Assembly (NCBI RefSeq): GCF_006345805.1
Contig: NC_043001.1
Location: 122,636,001 to 122,700,000 of the forward strand
Origin: Octopus sinensis
Lineage: Eukaryota
Direction: 5' to 3'
DNA: 64,000 nucleotides
Below are positions 14,515 through 51,200 of the stretch, in pieces. Made by a program: the position numbers and the translations under genes. The notes below the pieces were generated by a model. The model did not search any database, had not been told where the DNA came from, and worked only from the letters and a program-made list of their open reading frames with translations. Every line of letters starts with the position of its first letter. Positions within the stretch are counted from its first letter, which is position 1.

Positions 14515-15096
14515 AATAAAACGAGTGGTTTACACCTGGTAGCTTACTAGTAAAGCACGGTCACTTTCAGAGTGATCGTTAGGTATATAACAAATGAATG
14601 ACAGAAGATGGAATATACAAGAATACATTATTAATCACAACAATTGCTTCGACACATCTAGCATCTTGTGGGACACACAAAAACTTGTTCAGGAGTATCC
14701 GGTGGTGCAGACGTATCTCGTTGGGTGATAAATAAAAAAAAAAAATCTCGTTAAAATGACAGTTCCATAATGCAACTTTTTGTTTTGTAGAGAGAAAAAT
14801 AGCCAGACGGAGGAAAATTCTTCATATATATAGAAAATCCAAAAATAACACTTTTATCGCTGGATTAAGTGTTCATTTCTCTTTTCGTTTTCTGCAATTT
14901 TATTTTTGGATCTTCTATATATATAAAGAATTTTCCTCCGTCTGGCTGTTTTTCTCTCTACAAAACGAAAAATTGCATTATGGAATTGTCATTTTAACGA
15001 AAATTTTTATTTATTTATTTATCACCCAACGAGATACGCTTGCACCACCGGATACTTTGTACAAGTTTTTGCGTGTCTCACAAGAGGAGTCGATGC
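14515..15096. mobile_element. Fold-back element (arms ~14664-14847 / ~14900-15085) in (TA)n, with a hammerhead-like fold; Penelope-like derivative
   Basis: ~185-bp inverted arms read directly. HHR topology on the minus strand at 14634-14729. Confidence 0.7.
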
Positions 15097-15108
15097 TATA
15101 TATATGTA

Positions 15109-35023: not shown

Positions 35024-35378
35024 AAGTAATTAAGGGTTTAGCAACGAATTGCCTCACCAACACACCGAATTTAGAAATAGCAGTCAAAGAGATATAGCTA
35101 TTCCTTCTACTAAAAGGGGGATCTCAGTAAAAACACAGCATTTGAAAGGCAAACACAGACAGGTAAGAAAGAAAGAATGAAATGAGGGCAATCATCATGC
35201 AATCCATCATGCAATTGCCGTCATTTCATTCTTTCTTTCTACCTGTCTGTGTTTGCCTTTCAAATGCTGTGTTTTTACTGAGATCCCCCTTTTAGTAGAA
35301 GGAATAGCTATATCTCTTTGACTGCTATTTCTAAATTCGGTGTATTGGTGAGGCAATTCGTTGCTAAACCTTAATACT
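35024..35378. repeat. Fold-back, ~165-bp arms (35024-35191 / 35212-35378) between microsatellites
   Basis: Near-perfect reverse complement, e.g. GAATTTAGAAATAGCAGTCAAAGAGATATAGC / GCTATATCTCTTTGACTGCTATTTCTAAATTC. Confidence 0.92.
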
Positions 35379-37162: not shown

Positions 37163-37533
37163 ATATATGTGTGTATATTGTGTATATATATAAGATATAT
37201 AAATATATATATATATAATAAATATATGTATATATATAATATATATAATAAATATATGTATAATATATGTATATATATATATGTATATATATATGTATAT
37301 ATATATATGTATATATATGTTATATATATATGTATATATATGTGTATATGTATATGTTATATATATATGTATATATATGTATATATATGTGTATATATAT
37401 GTATATATATATATGTATATATATGTTATATATATGTATATATATGTGTATATATATATATGTGTGTTTGTGTATATACATATATGTATATATATATAAT
37501 ACAAACAGGGAAAACACATCCAAACAGACGATA

Positions 37534-37930
37534 GAAAGAAAACAAGGACGGGTCATTCGGAGTTTTCTTTCCTCAGTCAAGTTCCAGATTATCTTTGCAA
37601 TTTCGGCTGGTTATACTCGAGATTGCTCCAATCTGGTCAGCCCGAAGGAAAATCTATGCTAAGAGCACTAAATTCCTTAGAAGAAAGCCGAGAATGTATA
37701 CGAAAACAAGGACAAAAAAACCGGAGGAATGGTACTTCTCCGTTTGTATCCGTTCTTGTTTCCGTATACATTCGCTGCTTTCTTCTAAGGAATCTAGGGC
37801 TCTTAGCATAGATTTTCCTTCGGGATGGCCAGATTGGAGCAGTCTCGAGTATAACAAGCCGAAACTGCAAAGATAATCTGGAACTCGACTGAGGAAAGAA
37901 AACTCCGAATAACCCGTCCTTGTTTTTTCA
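37534..37930. repeat. Fold-back, ~195-bp arms with a tiny spacer, between (TA)n and (CA)n
   Basis: Mirror ORFs on the two strands (37595-37876+ / 37637-37870-) reflect the palindrome. Confidence 0.92.
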
Positions 37931-38034
37931 TGTCCCTTTCTGTGTCATCCAAGTATCTGGATGTTTTGTTGTCGCCTGTTGCGTTCTTGTCCCATTTTTG
38001 TATTCTTTTTTATATACATATACACACGCACGCA

Positions 38035-40366: not shown

Positions 40367-40937
40367 AAGTGGCCGGTAGGGGGCTTTCTTGCTAACTAGA
40401 TGCCTCGTTGTGATGCAAGAAAATATCAAGAAAGCTGGCTGTTCAGGTTTGGTTATTTTCGCCAACCACTCAACGTACACTGTGCTCTTTATTTAGTGCC
40501 AGCTGCCTGTAAACAAACAATAATAACTGTCCGTCTTATCATTGTATTATATATATTCCATTATAGTTTTATTTTATATTTTGATACCTACTTTCTCTCA
40601 TTGCATGTATGTGTGCGCGCGCCTGTGTGTGTATGTGTATTGCTATACATACATAATACATACATACATACATACATACATACATACATACATACATACA
40701 ACATACATACATACATACATACATACATAGGTGTGTGTGGTGTATATATATCTTATATTATGTATGCATGTATATATGTATGTATAATGAATATACATAA
40801 ATAAGTATATTATATATATATATATATTATATATTATATATATATATATGATATATAGAATATATATATATATATATAGAATATATACATATATTGTATA
40901 TGTGTGCACAATGTATATATATATATATATCTAAATA

Positions 40938-41259
40938 ATTGCAGCGTGGAAGGTGTTGTAAGCCATTTAAGAACACACAAAAGCCGTTCGATTCACTTCA
41001 ACATTTAAGTTTAATTGTCAAAATATTTTCGTCGCTAAAATCCGCGACCGTTCACTGACAAAAATCGTGCTGCATCTCAGTGAACAGGTCGCGGATTTTA
41101 GCGACGAAAAATTTTTGACAAATTAAACTTAAATGTTGAAGTGAATCGAACGGCTTTTGTGTGTTTCTTAAATGGCTTACAAACACCTTCACGCTGCAAT
41201 TGTTTTCGTTCCAGCACACGATCTCAGATCAAATCACTTGCTATGCGAGTACATCTCCG

Positions 41260-41260
<1 letters not shown>
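40938..41260 (+). mobile_element. Palindromic element family P, copy 1 (arms 40938-41058 / 41077-41200 plus ~60-nt unique tail)
   Basis: Inverted arms, embedded in (TA)n. A second copy with the same boundaries lies at 50298-50626. Confidence 0.9.
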
Positions 41261-41318
<58 letters not shown>

Positions 41319-41639
41319 ATGTATATGTGTGCACAATGTATATATATATATATATTCGCAATGTTGATTCGCTAGCTTCTGCACGCATTTTTTTCTCTCC
41401 TTGTTTCTCTCCGTGTTTCTTTTCTGTGTATCTTTCTGTTGAAGAACGTAGGCTCGAAACGTAAAAGACTTGTTTTATTTTATATTCCTGAGCGCCATAC
41501 TAATACAATTGTTGTTTGTATTCCACCTGCCTTCGTCTTTTGTTTATTTTCATAAAGCTTCCCGTTATATATATATATATATATATGTATATGTATATAT
41601 AGATATATATACATATATATGTATATGTGTGCACAATGT

Positions 41640-42104
41640 TGTCTGCTCTTTCAGTTGAGATGTCCAGTCTCTCGGTTATCTGACGACATGATATTCAGCG
41701 ATCTTGCATTATCATACCACGAGCAAAGTCAACGTTGTCCTTAGTGGTTGCAGTTGGAGGTCTCCCTGGACTGGGGTATCATCTTCCACACTCTCCCTGC
41801 CACGCTTAAATTCGTTTACCTAACGTTTGACAGTTGCATATAAAGGAGCATTGTCTATTAAGGTTCTCACTATATCTTCATGGATTTCTGATGGAGTCAT
41901 GCCTTTCAAATGAAGGTTATTTATTACAGCACGATACTCAGTTTTCTCCATTTTCCTTGTAACCTCGACACCTGTTTATTCAAAAATCTCAACAAAAAAA
42001 AAAATAAATAAATAAAAATTAAATGTCAGAATCATGAAAATGAGCAAGAATACTCCGAATAGACTGCACTTACTAGAAAAAAAAAAGGTTTCATACACCC
42101 CTCG
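41640..42104 (-). pseudogene. Mariner transposase 5' relic with left TIR
   Basis: TA|CGAGGGGTGTATGAAA end at 42104. ATG at 41951: MEKTEYRAVINNLHLKGMTPSEIHEDIVRTLIDNAPLYATVKR*VNEFKRGRESVEDD, a mariner HTH N-terminus with a stop and a frameshift. Confidence 0.85.
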
Positions 42105-42328
42105 TATAAATGTTGCCAAAGTAACGAAGCTAAAGCCACTTGACCAAGATTGACCTTGAACTCTGCTGTGCGTGTACACTGAATTTTAACGTTCTAGCTC
42201 AGTTCTGCTGTTTACAGCAGTGCTTGGAAGTAACGTGTGTAGTGTGGGTTCGTCGCATTGACCATAACAGTAAGAAGTTAAGCAGAGAATCTGCGTGAGA
42301 TTTTGTCAAAAGCTTGGCGATACCTGCT

Positions 42329-42373
<45 letters not shown>

Positions 42374-42481
42374 TGTGTATAAAGTTAATCCAAACATGAA
42401 AACACAAAGAGAAAACACAGCAACGCGAGGACGTGGAACAAGTATAGTGTGTTTGGACGCTCAGGAAAGGAAAGAAGGAAG

Positions 42482-42516
42482 ATTTAACGTTTCGAGCGGA
42501 GCTCTTCGTCAGAAAC
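42482..42516 (-). ncRNA. Minimal type I hammerhead ribozyme motif (Penelope-like)
   Basis: GTTT-CTGACGA-A-GAGC-TCC-GCTC-GAAA-CG-TT-AAAT, with canonical core boxes, stem II and a short stem I. Confidence 0.6.
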
Positions 42517-42581
42517 ATAGAAAAAGGAAAGATCCAAGGGAGGGAAGACGGAGGAAAGAATCGCCAACGATACACACGCGG

Positions 42582-42643
<62 letters not shown>

Positions 42644-42705
42644 TCACCATGATAGATCGTTAGCCACTACACACATTTTTTTCTCTCCTTGATTTTTCTG
42701 TGTCC

Positions 42706-42741
42706 CTTTCTGTAGAAGAGCGTAGGCTCGAAACGTAAAAG
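42706..42741 (+). ncRNA. Hammerhead-like motif with variant core CTGTAGA (sister copies at 41432-41467 + and 48618-48653 -)
   Basis: CTTT-CTGTAGA-A-GAGC-GTAG-GCTC-GAAA-CG-TA-AAAG, inside a ~190-bp repeat next to microsatellites. Confidence 0.5.
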
Positions 42742-42830
42742 ACTTTTTCTATTCCTGAGCGTTATACAAATACATCTGTTTGTTTTGTACACCACCTGTC
42801 TTCGTCTTTTGTTTTTTTCGTAAACTCTCG

Positions 42831-42871
<41 letters not shown>

Positions 42872-43593
42872 CATACACATATGGCTAGCTCAGTTTTTTT
42901 CTTATTATTCTGCCTGTGTATACTCATTTTCACTTTTTCTTAGTACTGCCAGAATTGGCTGTTCATAAAATTTTAAAACTTATCGCTAAGGCAGCGATTT
43001 TCACTTCTTGGAAACCTCTCCACGCCTTACCTTTTCCCCTCTTATTTTGTTTATCTCTGCAACTATCTTTACAATATTTTTATAGCTTTTTCTCCCACTT
43101 TTATTTTTAAATATTTCTTTCTATTTCTTTCTTTTATTTTTTTATATTGCTTTCTTTCTTCTTTTTTTCTTCTTTCTTTCTCTCTCTTTCTTTCATTTTT
43201 TTTTCCTTTCCTTTCTCCTGTGAATGTTGTTCATTAAAAACGTGTCACTGGATGCTTTCTTATTTCATATTCTGAGAATTATCTATTTCAGAAGTGTAAA
43301 CCAAAGTACTTAGCATACATAGAACTGTTTCGTGTTTTCTATTGTCGAAAAACTGGGTGGTTGGTGGGTGGGTGTAAATGAGACAGTGGTGGTGGTGGTA
43401 GTGATGGTATTAGATGAGAAAGAGGAAGTTGGGGAGGGAGAAGGTTGTTGTTGTTGTTGTTAGTGGTGTGATGGTAGTAGAGGCGGTGAACGAGGAGCAT
43501 TGTTTCCTCGTCACTGTTCGGCTTGGGAAAAAATTATATTTGAGTATGTGTATGTGTGTGTGTACATACATGTATGTATGTATACACACACAG

Positions 43594-43625
<32 letters not shown>

Positions 43626-45226
43626 GTATACACATACAATATGTATATATATATATACATACATATATACATATATGCGTACGTATACACACACATATAC
43701 ATATGCATTATGTATTATGTATATATATATATATATATATAAGACATATATATATACATATATATATATATGTATATATATAAGACATATATATATATAT
43801 ATATATATACACTCATATATATATTTATATATATATGTATATGTATAAATAGTAATATATATAGAAAAATATACTATACATATATATAGAAATATATACT
43901 ATACATATATATATGTGTCTGTGTATGTATATATATTTATATATATACACACACACATATACATACATACCTATATATAAATAGACGATCGCATGCAAAC
44001 CTACAAGTGAATCGATGTTATATTGATACTCCCCCGCCTTATTACGGCAACTGTTCTCATATATCTATTTGAGTTTGTTCGCTATTAATAAACGGACACA
44101 AGATTGTTACCTTCCGGTTCTCTTCTAGAAGAGGGCCGTGAATACACAATGTCGCACCTCACCTCTGGAAGCCTCAAATGTCTTTCATATGTCGCTCTAT
44201 CGTAAATACATTTCCTACAATTCATTCATGTATTTCACTTCAACAAAGAAAACGTTGTCTTAGTATTGATAGAATGGGTTGGTTGCAATGATGGCTGAAC
44301 CGATTTAAATCAGAATCTAACACATACGTGCATTCTTACATACACACACAGATGTATTCACGCACGCACGCAAGCAAACCCCCACACGCGCGCTTATATT
44401 CTTGTGTAAACTCACTACGTCTGAGAAACATTGTGGTTTAGTCCACTTTTTTTAGGATTATATAAAACAACATTATCCAATGTGTAATTTCCTTATTCAT
44501 ATTTATGAAGGGTGTGAGTTCGTGGAGATTTGGCTGTTATGTCTTGCAAATCGAGTGACCTAATATATGCTCCTTCATTGGCTCGTTCTGAGAAAAACTT
44601 AATTTACCTCTGCTGCTGCTGTTGTTGTTGATTTTAAGCAATACAGGTAAGGGTGATTAGGTGATGGTCTAGGGCTTAGGGGTGGGAGACCCCGGACCTT
44701 GGAAAAAAAAAACTTTGGTTGTCTTGTAGTCGAGGGCTCTTCGTTGACACCCGACACCACTGGGAGGTGGCCCTCGAAATCGCTGGAAATGGAGATTTTC
44801 AGGTCCAAATTCTTGAACGGCAGCTGCTGCTGCTGTTGTTATTTAACCCCAGGTTAACCCTGGCAGAACTGATTTGCCATTGTTTAACTCCAGTTCAATG
44901 CTGATCGAACCAACAACTGTCTTGACTACATTTTGCCTCAGAACGAAGAGAATCTTTCATTTGCTTTAGAAATTAGGTCTATATAAAAAGGGACAATACC
45001 AATGGTATTTACAAGTCTCTTTTACTCTTTTACTCTTTTACTTGTTTCTGTCATTTGATTGCGGCCATGCTGGAGCACCTCCTTTAGTCGAGCAAATCGA
45101 CTCCAGGACTTATTCTTTGTAAGCCAAGTACTTATTCTATCGATCTCTTTTGCCGAACCGCTAAGTTACGGGTACGTAAACACTGGGGGGACAAACACAG
45201 ACACACACACACATACACACATACAC

Positions 45227-45257
<31 letters not shown>

Positions 45258-45883
45258 ACATACATACATATATATTTACATACGACAGGCTTCTTTCAGT
45301 TTCAGTCTACCAAATCCACTCACAAGGCTTTGGTCCTCCCGAGGATATAGTAGAAGACACTTGCCCTAGGTGCCACGCAGTGGGACTGAACCCGGAACCA
45401 TTGGTTGGTAAGCAAGCTACTTACCACACAGCCACTCCTGCGCCTATAAGTTACGCAGTCGAAGGGCTGATGCTTCTTTTGAACTTTCTACTATCAGCAT
45501 TTCTGCTGCAATAATGGCCTCTGCTCCTCTGGGCTGATTGTGATCATACCACTTCCATTTAGGATCGTCAGTCACACTCGTCTCCCTCTTTTTCGCATTA
45601 ACTTTGTTGCTTTCTCATGAATCCCTACACCCAATCCTTCCTTCTTACTCAGCATTTCGACCGGCTTCGCTCATTTTCCTGGAAGCGTTTACTTGCAACA
45701 GTGCAAGAGAAACATTAATAACACAAATCTTGCTGATCCTGGGGAATCAGACAAGTCGAAGGGCACTGTCCCTGCCTGCAGCCCAAGCAAGTAGAAAATT
45801 GCATATGCAACACAAGATTTTCACAAGTTCTATGAATAGAACCTATAATATCTTTCATAACAAACAAGTCTCGACAAACAATA

Positions 45884-46446
45884 CTTTTCTACTCTAGGCA
45901 CAAGACCCAAAATTTTGGGGGAGGGGCCACGACCCCAGTACGCAACTGGTACTTAATTTATCGACCCCGAAAGGATGAAATTCAAAGTCGACCTAGGCGA
46001 AATTTCAACTCAGAACGTATAGACAGTCAAAATACCTATTTCTTTACTGCCCACAAGGGGCTACACACAGAGGGGACAAACAAAGACAGACAAACGGATT
46101 AAGTCGACTATATCGATCCCAGTGCGTAACTGGTACTTATTTAATCGACCCCGAAAGGATGAAAGGTAAAGTTGATCTCGGCGGAATTTGAACTCAGAAC
46201 GTAGCGGCAGGCGAAAATACCTATTTCTTTACTACCCACAAGGGGCTAAACACAGAGAGGACAAACAAGGACAGACAAACGGATTAAGTCGATTACATCG
46301 ACCCTAGTGCGTAACTGGTACTTATTTATCGACTCCGAAAGGATGATAGGCAAAGTCGAACTCGGCAGAATTTGAACTCAGAACGTAACGGCAGACGAAA
46401 TACGGCTACGCATTTCGCCCGGTGTGCTAACGTTTCTGCCAGCTCG
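45884..46446 (-). mobile_element. SINE-A trimer with T2 terminal tail
   Basis: Three units. Imperfect flanking direct repeat GTCTCGACAAACAATA / GTCTTAACAAGCAATA. Confidence 0.85.
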
Positions 46447-47300
46447 TCTTAACAAGCAATAACAAATCAGTTTCTCCACTACACCTATCATAAAAACACA
46501 TCTGTGACATTACACCTTTTTTTTTTTTGCGCATGAAAATAGTTCTCATTTAATTATCTCCATGCAAATGACAGGCCTGACAATCTTTGCAGCAGCTGCA
46601 CGCCCAGAAATCCTTGACAGCTTGCAGAAAATGGCAACCTAACTGAAAAGCATAAAATTCGCATATAGACACGCTCCAGGCTCTAGCCAAGGGTATGCTA
46701 TCTTTTCTCGCTACGTTATCTACGATTACTATAATGATCCCTGCCCTTCGGACCTGACTGGGCTCGTGCCATCTCTACTCATATATTCCAGTCCCATTCA
46801 AGCAATGTACCTGTCTTTAACACTTGCAAAAACTACAATCAGTGCACATTCGGCGGAATAAATAACAAAGCAAACAAGAATATGGTATGAAGAGTTTTAA
46901 GTGCCTTAGAACCTGTGACAGTACCAGTTGATAGAATGTGGTCATTAGCCATCCTGTTCCCTTGGCCATCATGACTAGAGCCCCCATGATGAGAGTACCT
47001 ATAAAGCTGTAGTAATGTAAGCAATATAAAAGTAAACCTTTACCCTGCTGTAGTATATCTATCTTCGTTTATCACTGGTCTTTGGTTAAAAAAATCACCA
47101 TGTTAAATGAACCAATGATAACTGAATACTAAAACATATGGAGGAAAATAGGTTTCGTTTTGAGACCCCAAGTTGCTCTGAACATTCTGGATGGTCACTA
47201 AGGCACGCTTTGGCGGTAAAACAGAATCTTTCATTGATCGCCGACCTATGTTATCACAGATCAATTTCTGATAAGTATAACACGATTCACAATTGAGCGT

Positions 47301-47375
47301 ATCGTGTTACATGGATCTGTTATGAGTTGTGTTACATGGATCTGTTATGAATCGTGTTACATGGATCTGTTATGA
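47301..47375. repeat. 25-bp minisatellite x3
   Basis: (ATCGTGTTACATGGATCTGTTATGA) x3, middle unit with 2 substitutions. Confidence 0.95.
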
Positions 47376-48454
47376 ATGAATCATGGAGAGGATAGACGTA
47401 CATGAGCAAAACCTCATATATCAAGATTTTGGTATAATTTTGACAGTTTTTTACTTTTGAATAACAAATCTCAACTTTAGTCTAGGACTTCGATATCTAT
47501 TTGTCGTTCAAACTAGCCAACATTCTTGCTCAGCCAATGAGTCAAATCTCTTTTGGTTGTTCAGCAATGCATATTAATATACATTAGTGATTTTTTGCTT
47601 GTATTATATAGACGAGTTTATGCATTAACTGTTTAATTTATTGGAAACGTGGTTGGCTACACGACACAACAGATCTCTCAGTTCAACGAGCAGTGATCTT
47701 TTCGCTAACGCCAGCTGCTTGTTCTCTAAAGACAACCTACGTATTTCGCGCACTTATGCAAGCAGTCGATATATTTATTGTTAAGTGTGACAGGGTTTAC
47801 GTACGTAAACTCGGGCCGTTCGTCGAGTGAATGTGCTTGTATGTTTGTGAGCTGTGAGCGTGCATGCGTGCGTGTATGTGTATGTGTGTGTATGTGTATG
47901 TGTGTGTGGCCACGGCTGTTGTACATTATATAGACAACGCTGTTATTTGGTGCTTCAATATATCTAGTCCATTGAGTTTTATATAAAACATCTATTGTAC
48001 ATATACTTTTCTTGATCCATTGAAACATACAAATATATATAATCTTTTTTAACCGTCTTTTATTGCTTATTCGGAAGGTTTTACGTTCTTCTCTTCATTA
48101 TTTGTCAAGAATACAAACATTAACATTTGAGTACATACACAGTACTGTCATTGATAACATAGCACTTGAAAAAAAAAGAGAATAAGAAAAGAAAAACAGA
48201 CGCATAATAGATGAGGTTGAAATGAAGTAGTCTAGCATGTCCAGTATGCTAAAGGTTCAACTTACTAAATAGATAAGATTGTAAACAATGGTAGCGAGCA
48301 GTGCAAAAATGAGGTGAGTCTGTTAATATTTTACATGAACGATAAAAGCTCAAGTGAAACCCGTAACGACATATTGCTCATACATCAATTCGTGATCAGT
48401 GTTGAGTGTGCCGTGTTACTTGGAACAATGATCATTGAATCAGTGATAAACGAG

Positions 48455-48531
<77 letters not shown>

Positions 48532-50297
48532 TGTGAGAATTTACAAAAAACAAAAGACGAAGACGGGTGTGTAAACAACAAACAGATATATCAGTTTAAC
48601 GGTCGGGAAGTGAGAGACTTTTACGCTTCGAGCCTACGCTCTTCGACAGAAAGGAACACAGAAATAAACAGGGAGAGAAAATAGAAAAGGTTGACTACTA
48701 CACATCGAAGCAGTTACGCATTCAAAGGTTTTTGATGTATTCCAAAGAAGGTTCTCTTGCTAATTGACAAATATTCTTTTTACCCTAGGCATAAGGCCCG
48801 AAATTTTGGGGGAGGGGGCCAGTCGATTAGATCGACGCCAGTACGCAACTAGTACTTAATTTATCGACCCCGAAAGGATAAAAGGCTCACACATCAATGC
48901 ACTACCAGCTTTAACTATTAGATATACTCGCTTCTACCGATTGATATTCTTTTCTACTCAAGGCACAAGGCCCGAACTTTTGGGGGAGGGGACCAGTCGA
49001 TTAGATCGAACCCAGTACGCAACCTGTACTTAATTTATCGACCCCTAAAGGATGTCATTGTCCTCAGAACGGAACAGTCTGCTCATGAAATTAACATGGA
49101 AGTAGCTGAGCTCACCACAGATACGTTTATCCATAACGTAGTTCTCAGGGAGTCTCGGCGCGACACAGAATGTGCAAGGCTGGCCCTTTGAATAACAGGT
49201 ACAACCAAATTTTGCAAGCTGAGTGGACAGGAGCAACGTAAAATAAACTGTCTGACTGAGGGGCACAACGCACAGCCGGGAATTGAACCCACGCCCTCGC
49301 GATTGTGAGTCGAATTCCTTAACCACTAAGCCACAGTTGAATATCACAATAGTGGTTGATGAATAAGGTACAAGGCTCACAATTTTGAGGGGAAGGGATC
49401 AATCGATATCATTGACACATTGTATTTGACGGATATTTTATTTTATCGATGCTGAAAGCAGTGAAAAGCAAGGTTGCTCTCTGAAGGTTCGAACACAGAA
49501 TATAAAGTGCTAGAAGAAACACTGCGTAATAATCGTACTGATGTTCTAACAATTCTGCCATCTCACTGCCCTCGTGGGGCTAAGTAATCCTTTCTGCTAT
49601 TTTTGAAATGTTGGATTCCATCCATTCAATTATCCATCCATCTATTCATTCATCCACCAATTCATCCATCTGTTCATCCATTCATCTATTCATTCATCCG
49701 TCTGTCTGTTCGTCAGTCCATCCATCCATCCATCCAGCCATCCATCCATCCATCCAGCCATCCATCCATCCAGCCAGCCATCCAGCCAGCCATCCAGCCA
49801 TCCATCCAGCCAGCCAGCCAGCCAGCCGAAATGTATACAACTCAAATGTATACAAATGCTAAATGCATACAACTGAGTCTGCATGGTTGGCGGCAAAAGC
49901 ATAACAAAACTGGAAGGGAACGGTAGCTAGATCGATTCGGGAACAGCAGATGTAATAAAAGACTAAGTGAAATGCTTGCATTTGAACTTCAACCAAGACA
50001 AAATCTGACCCAGATTCTATCTGGCAGAGCAGGCTTGTCGGGATTTTCCAAACACTAAAGAACCGGTAGTTCGTAAGAAGAAACTAAGGTGGTCAGCACA
50101 TCACTGAGTCAATGTAACCAACTAAGTCGTGGTCCGTGGCTGGAACCGGTCCGCTAACCATCAGCTGCCAGTACGTGGCGAGTTTCCAGAAAAGAAAGAA
50201 ACATTATAAAAATCTTATGTAATTATTGTATCTTTTGTTTACAAAATAAACACATGATAAAAAAAAAAATTGAACTTTTATTATATTCACTATATAT

Positions 50298-50626
50298 ATT
50301 GCAGCGTGGAAGGTGTTTATAAGCCATTTAAGAAACACAAAAACCGTTAGATTCACTTAAACATATAAATTTAATTTGTCAAAATATTTTCGTCGCTTTG
50401 AGACCGCGACCTGTTAACTGACAAAATTTCGTGCTGCATCTTGTCAGTGAACAGGTCGCGGTCTCAAAGCGATGAAAATATTTTGACAAATTAAATTTAA
50501 ATGTCGAAGTGAATCTAACGTTTTTTGTGTGTTTCTTAAATGGCTTATAAACACCTTCCACGCTGCAATTGTTTTCATTCCAGCACACGATCTCAGATCA
50601 AGTCACTCGCTATGCAAGTACATCTC
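50298..50626 (+). mobile_element. Palindromic element family P, copy 2 (arms 50298-50424 / 50441-50569 plus tail)
   Basis: Same start ATTGCAGCGTGG, spacer and 3' tail as 40938-41260. Confidence 0.9.
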
Positions 50627-51200
50627 TATAAAATATATTTATTGTTTCCGGTATAAATTAATATTAATAAGAAATATTACCGGTTCCTGGCACACTGGAA
50701 AAAACAGAAATTGCCGGTACGCCACATCGGATAGTTTGAGAAGCACTGCTTTAGATGACGGTGGTCCAGAAGAACGATAATTCAATGACTAAAACACCAA
50801 TAAAGGAATGAAAACATGTTTTAAAATTCCATGATCGTGTCAGCAAATTTGTACTATAAGATTTACTATATATCATATATAAAAGTTTTCAGATTACAAT
50901 ATCAATATTTATGCATATTCTTATCGCTCCAAACACGTATAATATTACAATAATATTATACAAGTATGTATGTATGTATGTATGTATGTATGTATGTATG
51001 TATGTATGTATGTTGTATGTATGTATGAATGCATGTATGTATGTATGTATGTATGTATGTATGTATGTATGTATGTATGTATGTATGTATGGATGGATGG
51101 ATGGATGGATGTGTTTGTATGTATGTATATATGGCTCGTATACAAGAAAACAGGTAAGATGTATGTCTATCTGTCCGTATGTATGTATGTGATGATGATG

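What the first reader, a model, noticed from the sequence alone, without database searches (positions are those of the whole stretch)
40938..50626. Palindromic element family P: both arms change together between copies
Seen: two copies (40938-41260, 50298-50626) share start, spacer and 3' tail. Copy-specific variants appear in both arms of each copy: tttGtaag vs tttAtaag, cgttCgattc vs cgttAgattc, aaGttt vs aaAttt, gctAAAATccgc vs gctTTGAGAccgc. Inference: the arms are re-templated from one sequence during propagation (like LTR regeneration or Penelope inverted pLTR formation), or homogenised by intra-hairpin conversion, or held by selection on a ~120-bp dsRNA stem. This points to a fixed-structure, non-coding fold-back mobile unit.
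Basis: partly seen in the sequence, partly recalled or inferred. Interest (0 to 1): 0.75.

Follow-up and report, generated by a model that had tools for sequence, protein, structure and literature searches.

The report
Hairpin retroelement rebuilt at each insertion
The two copies belong to a family of thousands of short non-coding retroelements, and their hairpin arms change together because both arms are likely copied from one RNA each time the element inserts, as Penelope-like retrotransposons are thought to do; it is an instructive but not exotic kind of mobile DNA.

Summary
Both window copies are about 139-nt inverted arms plus a 57-nt one-sided tail, and the four listed variants are mirrored in both arms.

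These variants are not copy-specific. They mark two subfamilies, A (copy 1 type) and B (copy 2 type), each with at least 40 members.

Across 68 independent insertions:
- Subfamily-diagnostic sites are mirrored in 30-32 copies and single-armed in 0-2.
- Rarer mirrored variants exceed shuffled controls about 4.5-fold.
- On a tree, arms group by subfamily and often by locus, never by side.

A passively duplicated copy (47 of 80 tail hits) is a natural negative control and shows no mirroring.

The family is a retroelement, not a MITE:
- 10-16 bp target-site duplications (TSDs) flank whole fold-backs.
- It prefers (TA)n targets.
- It includes one-armed "monomers", inversion-plus-deletion forms and variable apex junctions.
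- It has two fixed 3' ends 57 nt apart, and fold-backs carry exactly one tail.

This is the published insertion signature of Penelope-like elements (PLEs). PLEs that target (TA)n abound in this genome. I found no sequence-related autonomous partner, so the mobiliser is inferred.

Re-templating is well supported. Attribution to a Penelope-like machinery is moderately supported.

The parts
40938..41076 (+). Copy 1 (subfamily A), left arm: reverse complement of monomer positions about 1-144, complete to the apex (GTGCTGCATC)
   Evidence: L111 is this copy: L1-148, R20-205
41077..41204 (+). Copy 1, right arm: monomer from about position 20 to CAATTGTT. Its inner 19 nt are missing at the junction.
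41205..41261 (+). Copy 1, unpaired 57-nt tail ending CATCTCCGTA, followed by (TA)n
50298..50440 (+). Copy 2 (subfamily B), left arm
   Evidence: L001 is this copy: L1-144, R17-201
50441..50573 (+). Copy 2, right arm: monomer from about position 17 to CAATTGTT
50574..50629 (+). Copy 2, 57-nt tail. Its end is mutated to CATCTCTATA.
50291..50301 (.). Upstream copy of the 11-bp target-site duplication of copy 2 (TATATATATTG). It overlaps the element's first ATTG (microhomology).
   Evidence: L001: 11 bp, 1 mismatch
50634..50644 (.). Downstream copy of the target-site duplication of copy 2 (TATATTTATTG)
40895..40914 (+). First of three exact copies of a 20-mer (also at 41320-41339 and 41620-41639). 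The three copies bracket copy 1 and the neighbouring Penelope-like fragment, like long target duplications.
   Evidence: 3 matches, 0 expected
41357..41567 (+). 5'-truncated 3' end (about 212 nt) of an abundant Penelope-like family ('PLE-2'), ending CTTCCCGTTA(TA)n, inserted in the same microsatellite beside copy 1
   Evidence: 90.8% to the full-length copy L235

Best explanation
The two copies are members of a family of thousands of short non-coding retroelements whose hairpin is likely rebuilt at every insertion, because both nicked strands of the target would prime reverse transcription of one and the same RNA of about 205 nt, the mode of integration proposed for Penelope-like elements.

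Shown directly:
- The basic unit is a 'monomer' M, made of the right arm plus the tail, beginning (G)AGATGCAGCAC.
- Insertions are flanked by 10-16 bp duplications or sit in (TA)n.
- The unit has two alternative 3' ends: CAATTGTT at M148 and CTCCGTA at M205.
- About half of independent insertions carry an inverted copy of M attached head-to-head at M's 5' end.
- The outer end of that inverted copy lies at M142-150, and such insertions almost always have exactly one tail.
- Sequence variants are shared by the two arms of a copy.

Inferred:
- One strand's cDNA starts at M205 and the other strand's at M148 on the same RNA.
- Both run towards the RNA's 5' end.
- Their ends are joined by microhomology, which gives the variable apex.

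The arms are therefore identical at birth and carry whatever variants the source RNA had. Afterwards each arm decays on its own. The enzyme is likely supplied in trans by one of the genome's abundant (TA)n-targeting Penelope-like elements. Which one is not established.
For: (1) Retroelement, inserted as one unit.
- Of 96 independent insertions with a complete 3' end, 54 lie in or beside (TA)n.
- Of the other 42, 30 have a 10-16 bp TSD flanking the whole structure. These include monomers (L067, L068) and partial forms (L034, L065, L080, L086).
- L264 and L259 also have a TSD around the whole structure.

(2) Re-templating.
- The eight A/B diagnostic sites are mirrored in 30-32 copies and single-armed in 0-2.
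- Within-subfamily mirrored variants are 20 vs 4.4 +/- 1.8 in A and 30 vs 6.4 +/- 2.3 in B.
- The left-to-right distance within a copy is 0.021 in A and 0.043 in B. Against other copies' right arms it is 0.029 and 0.052. The rank of a copy's own right arm is 0.31 and 0.32, p about 1e-3.
- On a tree of 136 arms the subfamily label changes once and the side label 44 times, against 37-43 in the five shuffled labellings printed (200 were run). Nine of 33 cherries are the two arms of one copy.
- No single-arm variant is shared by more than 6 independent copies. The commonest are at CpG sites or at the apex junction.

(3) Negative control.
- One fold-back was carried passively inside a larger repeat: 47 of 80 tail hits have identical flanks.
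- It has fixed unmirrored arm differences and 1 mirrored variant vs 1.3 expected (49 copies). The rank of its own arm is 0.507.

(4) Products that fit two cDNAs from one RNA with a defined 5' end.
- Nine monomers start at position 1-4.
- L080 is rc(M1-86)+M109-205 and L076 is rc(M69-148)+M147-205. Both are inversion plus deletion without a palindrome.
- L126 has both arms complete to position 1 with a 6-nt filler between them.
- 'Flip' junctions (left arm complete) and 'flop' junctions (right arm complete) both occur within each subfamily.

(5) Two fixed start sites and one tail.
- The outer end of the inverted arm is at M142-150 in 72 of 78.
- Tail-less one-armed copies end CAATTGTT|(AT)n: L262, L269, L274, L276.
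- In an arm-ascertained sample, the unambiguous single arms are 5 tailed and 5 tail-less, and L267 (truncated at M92) was counted as a sixth tail-less one. Eight of 9 inverted forms have exactly one tail.
- Only 1 of 77 tail-ascertained fold-backs has two tails. Independence predicts 29% (p = 7e-11).

(6) Published PLE hallmarks match.
- An inverted 5'-truncated copy at the 5' end, a short 'tail' at one end only, (TA)n targets and no hammerhead in Naiads (PMC8557442, passages read).
- An inverted pLTR, a 31-bp optional tail, 8-10 bp TSDs and palindromes at the inverted junction (PMC3846280, passages read).
- The PLE protein cleaves and extends both strands, initiates at two adjacent internal RNA sites, and the tail is the stretch between them (PMC11167929, main text read).

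(7) PLEs are abundant here and use the same targets.
- There are 5029 GIY-YIG candidates.
- ORFs of 780 and 883 aa carry RVT_1 and GIY-YIG.
- Two families end in (TA)n.
- One PLE-2 fragment lies beside copy 1 in the window.
- In L212 a truncated PLE-2 abuts M exactly at M205.
Against: - No autonomous element shares sequence with M. BLAST of M found nothing significant in 30 + 10 + 23 PLE loci. M against the PLE-2 3' end scores no better than shuffles (z -0.3 and 0.8). Only short motifs are shared: the terminal CCGT(T)A+(TA)n, and CAATTGTT 63-65 nt from the end.
- The abundant PLE-2 3' fragments do not show the same habit. All 22 of 22 end at one site. Only 1 of 19 short fragments has an inverted piece nearby, against 16 of 33 for M.
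- No hammerhead ribozyme and no direct (tandem) pLTR arrangement were seen (alignments).
- The RNA intermediate was not observed. RNA-seq of a related species covers the element in both directions without pile-ups of read starts.
- In the published in-vitro work the two start sites were used alike on both strands. Here each fold-back uses one of each, and the published data do not explain that.
- Most copies analysed were picked by similarity to the two window copies (60 of 68 full fold-backs), so subfamilies other than A and B are barely sampled.
Confidence: 0.62

Rival explanations
1. Twin priming by a conventional LINE (AP- or REL-endonuclease non-LTR element). M would be an ordinary SINE, and its 5' inversions would arise as in L1 twin priming, when the second target strand primes internally on the same RNA.
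For: - TSDs are 10-16 bp and variable, 5' truncation occurs, and there is microhomology at the 5' junctions.
- Inversion-plus-deletion products such as L080 and L076 look like classical twin-priming products. The L1 model is recalled, not read here.
- No sequence link to any PLE was found.
Against: - There is no poly(A) or LINE-like tail.
- The internal priming site is fixed (M142-150 in 72 of 78) rather than scattered.
- Two discrete 3' ends lie 57 nt apart, with exactly one tail per fold-back. That is the PLE signature in the papers read.
- No tRNA, 7SL or 5S head was found by Rfam.
- No LINE partner was looked for by reverse-transcriptase family, so this rival is not excluded.
Confidence: 0.15
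2. Self-priming (snap-back). A single cDNA folds back at a 5'-terminal palindrome and copies itself. The arms are still re-templated at each insertion, but from the cDNA rather than by a second target-primed start.
For: - Arkhipova et al. 2013 (PMC3846280, discussion passage read) read palindromes at inverted PLE junctions as self-priming.
- M's apex contains the palindrome TGCA/GCAGC.
- A 22-nt 5' extension seen in L102, L174, L212 and L276 resembles a remnant of a short left arm.
- L095 carries only an 18-nt fold-back.
Against: - Snap-back predicts a complete right arm and a truncated left arm ('flop'). Most junctions are 'flip', with the left arm complete to position 1 in 39 of 68 and the right arm short.
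- It does not explain the fixed outer end at M148, nor forms such as L264 and L259, where the inverted part is only the tail.
Confidence: 0.12
3. Fold-back master genes are transcribed as whole hairpins. Their arms are kept alike by intra-palindrome gene conversion, or by selection for a long dsRNA stem (for example as a small-RNA precursor).
For: - The hairpin is very stable (-193.9 kcal/mol, z -31).
- Weak sub-threshold matches to miRNA-precursor models were found (best 43.1 bits against a gathering score of 93).
- The left arm contains A-box-like and B-box-like motifs, judged by eye only.
Against: - Passively duplicated copies show no conversion (1 mirrored vs 1.3 expected) and keep fixed arm differences.
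- A mirrored block substitution with a 1-nt indel at positions 38-43 is hard to get by selection.
- Apex junctions differ among near-identical copies.
- Monomers, tail-less monomers and non-palindromic inversions carry their own TSDs.
- Arm and tail divergence show no consistent difference: 1.2% vs 2.3% in A and 2.0% vs 0.8% in B.
- T4-T5 runs inside the arms would stop Pol III (sequence; the Pol III rule is recalled).
Confidence: 0.05
4. An ordinary long-TIR MITE or Foldback DNA transposon moved by a transposase.
For: The long inverted repeats take up most of the element. Other palindromic elements in the window may be true MITEs, for example 35035-35370 with TTAA flanks.
Against: - The termini are not inverted repeats of each other, because there is a 57-nt tail on one side.
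- TSD length varies from 10 to 16 bp.
- One-armed, 5'-truncated and inversion/deletion copies each have their own TSD.
Confidence: 0.01

Closest known systems
Penelope-like element (PLE) insertions with an inverted pLTR and an optional one-sided 'tail' (Arkhipova et al. 2013 PMC3846280; Craig et al. 2021 PMC8557442; Frangieh et al. 2024 PMC11167929)
   Same: - A head-to-head inverted copy sits at the 5' end, with a palindromic and variable junction.
- A short extension is present at only one end.
- There are two alternative reverse-transcription start sites.
- TSDs are variable and short (8-10 bp in the passages read; 10-16 bp here).
- Targets are AT-rich or (TA)n.
- 5' truncation occurs.
- There is no hammerhead, as in Naiads.
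   Different: - There is no ORF. The whole unit is about 205 nt (about 330 nt as a fold-back).
- The tail is 57 nt rather than 30-40 nt.
- No tandem direct pLTR was seen.
- No sequence similarity was found to any of the PLE copies sampled in this genome.
Animal non-LTR retrozymes, non-autonomous PLE derivatives (bioRxiv 10.64898/2026.07.22.740005, abstract and outline only)
   Same: Short, non-coding, and proposed to be mobilised by PLEs.
   Different: Retrozymes carry hammerhead ribozymes, are tandemly arranged and are related in sequence to pLTRs. This family has no hammerhead, is dispersed, and has no detected pLTR homology.
L1 twin priming 5' inversions
   Same: A second target strand primes on the same RNA. 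This gives an inverted 5' segment, junction microhomology, deletions or duplications, and one TSD around the whole insertion.
   Different: The second priming site is fixed, the two cDNAs overlap almost completely (giving a true palindrome), there is no poly(A), and there is a one-sided tail.
SINEs
   Same: Short, non-coding, in thousands of copies, with subfamily structure, TSDs, and dependence on an enzyme supplied in trans.
   Different: No tRNA, 7SL or 5S-derived head was detected, no LINE-derived tail was identified, and there are two alternative 3' ends and frequent inverted 5' copies.
MITEs and Foldback elements
   Same: Long inverted repeats and strong hairpin potential.
   Different: It transposes through RNA, with variable TSDs, asymmetric termini and one-armed copies.

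Membership tests
Penelope-like element type of insertion (non-autonomous member) | [quoted passage not shown] | tested here: met
   16 of 33 independent tail-bearing insertions carry an inverted segment. TSDs flank the whole structure.
Penelope-like element type of insertion (non-autonomous member) | An optional short 'tail' extension present at one end only, reflecting two adjacent reverse-transcription start sites | tested here: met
   3' ends lie at M148 (CAATTGTT) or M205 (CTCCGTA). 76 of 77 tail-ascertained and 8 of 9 arm-ascertained inverted forms have exactly one tail. The tail is 57 nt, against 30-40 nt in the papers.
Penelope-like element type of insertion (non-autonomous member) | AT-rich or microsatellite target with a variable short TSD | tested here: met
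   54 of 96 insertions lie in or beside (TA)n. 30 of the other 42 have a 10-16 bp TSD.
Penelope-like element type of insertion (non-autonomous member) | Sequence relationship to the pLTR or 3' end of an autonomous RT + GIY-YIG element in the same genome | tested here: not met
   There are no significant matches in 63 PLE loci of at least two families. L212 is a juxtaposition, not a parent. Only part of the genome's PLE diversity was sampled.
Penelope-like element type of insertion (non-autonomous member) | Tandem direct pLTRs or a hammerhead ribozyme in the pLTR (canonical clades) | tested here: not met
   There is no Rfam hammerhead match at E up to 10 in copy 1. No tandem direct arrangement appears among independent copies. 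Naiad PLEs also lack hammerheads (PMC8557442).
SINE | A Pol III head derived from tRNA, 7SL or 5S, with A and B boxes | tested here: not met
   The Rfam scan of copy 1 lists no tRNA, 7SL or 5S family and nothing above a gathering score. ARAGORN was not run. Box-like motifs were judged by eye only.
SINE | A 3' tail shared with a partner LINE | not tested
   Only PLE loci were compared. LINE families of this genome were not collected.
MITE / Foldback DNA transposon | Terminal inverted repeats at both termini, a TSD of fixed length, and a matching transposase family | tested here: not met
   The tail is on one side only, TSDs run from 10 to 16 bp, and one-armed copies exist.
L1-type twin priming product | An inverted 5' segment plus a direct 3' segment within one TSD, with a poly(A) tail and scattered internal priming sites | tested here: inconclusive
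   Inversion/deletion forms are present (L080, L076). There is no poly(A), and the priming site is fixed.
miRNA / hairpin-RNA gene | A match to a curated precursor family at its gathering score | tested here: not met
   The best match is MIR7510 at 43.1 bits against a gathering score of 93.

The most novel reading that the evidence does not exclude
The family is a natural archive of thousands of miniature Penelope-type integration products. It shows that a single RNA molecule templates the cDNAs primed from both target strands, one from each of two fixed start sites 57 nt apart. The one-tail rule and the flip, flop and filler junctions record how the two cDNAs are joined, a step of the PLE cycle that the published papers call undefined. 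The element would be a hammerhead-less, ORF-less, SINE-like PLE parasite with no sequence homology to its mobiliser.
Probability: 0.45. Interest if true: 0.6.

Novelty: new member of a known kind. Interest (0 to 1): 0.45.

Why it matters
How Penelope-like elements make their tandem and inverted ends is still described as undefined (PMC8557442). So far it has been approached only in vitro, with one lizard element (PMC11167929).

This family offers a short, very abundant, non-coding substrate in which every insertion preserves three things: the two start sites, the junction, and the sequence of its template. Three inferences follow from that:
- Mirrored variants show that both arms come from one template.
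- The one-tail rule suggests that the two target strands use the two start sites once each.
- The junction spectrum can be read as a record of how the two cDNAs are resolved.

For genome annotation, the result is a warning. Such elements look like MITEs or hairpin-RNA genes, and one copy can be re-amplified passively inside another repeat.

It is not a new kind of mobile element.

Tried and rejected
- **M as the pLTR plus ORF start of a PLE.** M has an ATG at position 115, and the frame stays open to its 3' end (30 codons). In L212 it runs in frame into a PLE reverse-transcriptase ORF. Rejected: 23 other copies of that PLE have a different 5' region and no M. L212 proved to be a 5'-truncated M abutting a 5'-truncated PLE-2, next to a separate tail-less monomer.
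- **PLE-2 as a sequence-related partner.** The alignment of M with its last 260 nt or 75 nt is no better than shuffles. All 22 of 22 PLE-2 3' ends use one terminus. Only 1 of 19 short PLE-2 fragments has a nearby inverted piece.
- **Rfam.** Nothing reached a gathering score, and there was no hammerhead and no tRNA.
- **Arm versus tail divergence as a test of selection on the stem.** The two subfamilies gave opposite directions, so the result is inconclusive. The sample was picked by similarity to the queries.
- **Expression.** No RNA holder is listed. Raw RNA-seq of a related species (X21-X23, about 6% of each run read) laid 790-1043 reads on copy 2 in both directions. Depth over the tail and outer right arm was about twice that over the left arm. 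There were no pile-ups of read starts or ends. C>T and G>A differences were commoner than A>G. This does not identify the RNA intermediate or editing. Differences between genomic copies cannot be told from editing.
- **Earlier notes of this scan.** None exist for this genome.
- **L250.** It looked like a head-to-head PLE-2 pair but proved to be two small fragments 3.9 kb apart.
- **L174.** The M copy near a PLE ORF is an unrelated monomer in its own microsatellite.
- **Not attempted.** Protein-level tools (structure, complex, atlas) were not used, because the element is non-coding. The organism was not identified.

Full report
**1. What is in the window**

Each has a near-perfect inverted repeat of about 130-140 nt per arm and an unpaired 57-nt tail on the right side.
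- Copy 1: 40938-41076 / 41077-41204 / 41205-41261.
- Copy 2: 50298-50440 / 50441-50573 / 50574-50629.

They are 87.9% identical. Copy 2 folds as RNA at -193.9 kcal/mol, z = -31 against 100 shuffles.

**2. Family size and subfamilies**

The window lies in a 2.7-Gb genome.
- A search with copy 2 gave 4632 first-look candidates. All 40 scored are full-length at 91-95% identity.
- Copy 1 gave 2948 candidates. All 40 scored places are at 92-96%, and one further adjacent copy is at 89%.
- A 27-mer of the tail has 1335 exact matches and a 27-mer of the arm has 1881. The reversed controls have 0.

**3. It is a retroelement inserted as one unit**

Aligned copies show flanking duplications of differing length.
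- Of 96 independent insertions with a complete 3' end, 54 lie in or beside (TA)n.
- Of the other 42, 30 have a TSD of 10-16 bp. My crude search found none for the remaining 12.
- The TSD encloses the left arm, right arm and tail together.
- Several 5' junctions share AATTG-type microhomology with the target.

**4. An unbiased sample shows a spectrum of forms**

I fetched the first 79 loci on contig 1 that hold the tail 27-mer. They contain 80 tail occurrences:
- 47 belong to one class with identical flanks and an identical apex junction;
- 6 are full fold-backs;
- 10 are partial fold-backs or inversions;
- 9 are 'monomers' (right arm plus tail only) that begin at position 1-4 of the right arm, (G)AGATGCAGCAC;
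- 8 are plain 5'-truncated copies.

Some partial forms are not palindromes at all. L080 is rc(M1-86)+M109-205 and L076 is rc(M69-148)+M147-205, where M is the 205-nt monomer.

**5. A natural negative control**

The class of 47 shares at least 150 bp of upstream flank and 70 bp of downstream flank. It is one old fold-back insertion that sits in the internal microsatellite of a larger repeat and was copied passively with it.
- Its arms carry fixed differences that are not mirrored.
- Across 49 such copies there is 1 mirrored variant against 1.3 +/- 0.7 expected.
- A left arm is no closer to its own right arm than to others (rank 0.507, p = 0.58).

So arms are not homogenised while they sit in the genome.

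**6. Arms of independent insertions co-vary**

I analysed 68 independent full fold-backs: 32 of subfamily A and 36 of subfamily B. Sixty of them come from the two similarity searches.
- The eight A/B diagnostic sites (M38-43, 72, 92, 123) are mirrored in 30-32 copies and single-armed in 0-2. That run still held 5 stragglers of the control class.
- Within subfamilies, mirrored variants number 20 in A and 30 in B, against 4.4 +/- 1.8 and 6.4 +/- 2.3 when arm partners are shuffled. The maxima of 2000 shuffles were 11 and 15.
- Own-arm distance is 0.021 in A and 0.043 in B, against 0.029 and 0.052 to other copies' arms (p about 1e-3).
- On a FastTree of the 136 arms the subfamily label changes once. 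The side label changes 44 times, as often as the five shuffled labellings printed (37-43; 200 were run). Nine of 33 cherries are the two arms of one copy.
- Single-arm variants are more numerous (101 in A, 235 in B). They are private, or recur at CpG sites and at the apex junction. None is shared by more than 6 independent copies.

This is what birth-identical arms followed by independent decay predict.

**7. The apex is a junction, not a loop**

Near-identical copies differ at the centre.
- In most, the left arm is complete to the complement of position 1 (39 of 68) and the right arm lacks 2-20 nt ('flip').
- In at least five the reverse holds ('flop': L013, L019, L022, L027, L132).
- In L126 both arms are complete and are separated by 6 nt.
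- Others lack a few nt on both sides.

The same junction recurs in both subfamilies at a TC microhomology. This argues for formation at each insertion rather than inheritance.

**8. Two fixed 3' ends and exactly one tail**

- The outer end of the inverted arm lies at M142-150 in 72 of 78 cases, at M158 once and at M86-95 three times. In the remaining two rows it lies at the tail end (M202); both belong to L132, the one locus with tails on both sides.
- A second sample was drawn by the arm 27-mer: 20 loci that lack the exact tail word.
  - Five are one-armed copies with a tail.
  - Five are tail-less one-armed copies; four of them end CAATTGT(T) directly before (AT)n (L262, L269, L274, L276), and L263 ends at GCTGCAA before a non-microsatellite flank.
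  - One is truncated at M92 (L267). I counted it as tail-less.
  - Eight are inverted forms with exactly one tail. Among them are L264 and L259, where the inverted part is only the tail and one TSD surrounds the whole.
  - One is an inverted form without a tail (L258).
- If sides chose ends independently (p = 5/11, counting L267 among the tail-less), 29% of tail-bearing fold-backs should have two tails. One of 77 does (p = 7e-11).

**9. Comparison with the literature**

- Craig et al. 2021 (PMC8557442, passages) describe PLE insertions with an inverted 5'-truncated copy at the 5' end. They also describe a 30-40 bp tail often at one end only, (TA)n targets for Naiads, and no hammerhead in Naiads.
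- Arkhipova et al. 2013 (PMC3846280, passages) describe an inverted pLTR, a 31-bp optional tail on one of the inverted pLTRs, 8-10 bp TSDs and palindromes at the inverted junction. They also show that pLTRs suffice in trans.
- Frangieh et al. 2024 (PMC11167929, main text) show that a purified PLE protein cleaves and extends both target strands. It initiates at two adjacent internal RNA sites, and the tail is the stretch between them.

The family matches these hallmarks in form.

**10. PLEs in this genome**

- GIY-YIG gives 5029 candidates. The 147 matches listed all pass the Pfam cut-off.
- That family ends ...TTTTTTACAAA(TA)n.
- A second family (PLE-2) has ORFs up to 1009 aa (8652 candidates). 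Its 3' 22-mer has 5597 exact matches. It ends CTTCCCGTTA, or a near variant, before (TA)n in 21 of 22 sampled ends and (GATA)n in one.
- A 212-nt PLE-2 3' fragment lies at window 41357-41567, beside copy 1. Both insertions are bracketed by three exact copies of one 20-mer.

**11. What does not fit**

- M has no significant similarity to any sampled PLE locus.
- An apparent parent in L212 proved to be a juxtaposition. It is a tail-less reverse monomer, followed by a 5'-truncated M that abuts a 5'-truncated PLE-2 ORF exactly at M205.
- Short PLE-2 fragments rarely have inverted pieces (1 of 19) and use a single 3' end (22 of 22).
- The RNA intermediate was not seen.

The mobiliser is therefore inferred from the insertion signature and shared target, not from homology.

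**12. Verdict**

- Re-templating of both arms at each insertion is strongly supported.
- The mechanism is most likely target-primed reverse transcription from both strands of one RNA, in the Penelope-like manner (confidence about 0.6).
- LINE twin priming and self-priming remain as rivals.
- Conversion, selection on the stem and a MITE reading are disfavoured.

Noticed in passing
window 40895-40914, 41320-41339, 41620-41639: One 20-mer (TGTATATGTGTGCACAATGT) occurs three times, each time followed by (TA)n. The three copies bracket fold-back copy 1 and the adjacent PLE-2 fragment. Both insertions seem to have duplicated the same target of at least 20 bp, or to have hit the same microsatellite one after the other.
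   Followed up: partly
window 41357-41567: A 5'-truncated 3' end of a very abundant Penelope-like family lies here. The family has ORFs up to 1009 aa elsewhere, and its 3' 22-mer has 5597 exact matches. Many of its copies are fragments of only 86-232 nt, and several start at the same two positions, like a SINE-sized 3' unit.
   Followed up: partly
L032-L107 (contig 1) and L110:2646-8288: One fold-back copy is embedded in the internal (CATA)n/(TA)n microsatellite of a larger repeat. It was re-amplified with that repeat and accounts for 47 of 80 tail hits. It occurs in tandem in L057 (369-bp spacing) and three times within 10 kb in L110. The host repeat was not identified.
   Followed up: partly
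window 37508-38010: Another fold-back of a different family has 175-nt arms at 93%, non-palindromic ends and (TA)n on both sides. Its right terminus, TTCTTTTTTA(TA)n, resembles the 3' end of the first PLE family. This suggests the same mode of insertion in other families.
   Followed up: no
window 35035-35370 and 14660-15100: Two further palindromic elements. The first has 131-nt arms at 99% and what look like TTAA flanks, as a piggyBac-type MITE would have. Not every hairpin element in this genome is a retroelement.
   Followed up: no
L174:2-412: A palindrome of about 410 bp from an unrelated family (arms of 145 nt at 90% plus 57 nt at 98%) is flanked by (CATA)n-type microsatellite.
   Followed up: no
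L102, L174:479-500, L212 (reverse strand 843-863), L276: Four one-armed copies from different subfamilies share a 22-nt 5' extension (AACTAACTGTTACTTTCTCA) before position 1. It resembles a degenerate inner piece of a left arm. The ancestral unit may therefore have had a small 5' hairpin.
   Followed up: partly
monomer positions 115-205 (window 41171-41261 in copy 1): An ATG in the right arm opens a frame that runs without a stop to the 3' end of the tail (30 codons). This recalls PLE pLTRs, which include the ORF start. No PLE with this N-terminus was found.
   Followed up: yes
L181:847-1242 (= L132): This is the only copy found with tails at both ends. It is a complete symmetric dimer inside (TA)n, and it has private variants mirrored in both arms.
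   Followed up: partly
runs X1-X20: Near-identical words of copy 2 are held by runs under six organism labels. The family is therefore shared by several related species.
   Followed up: no
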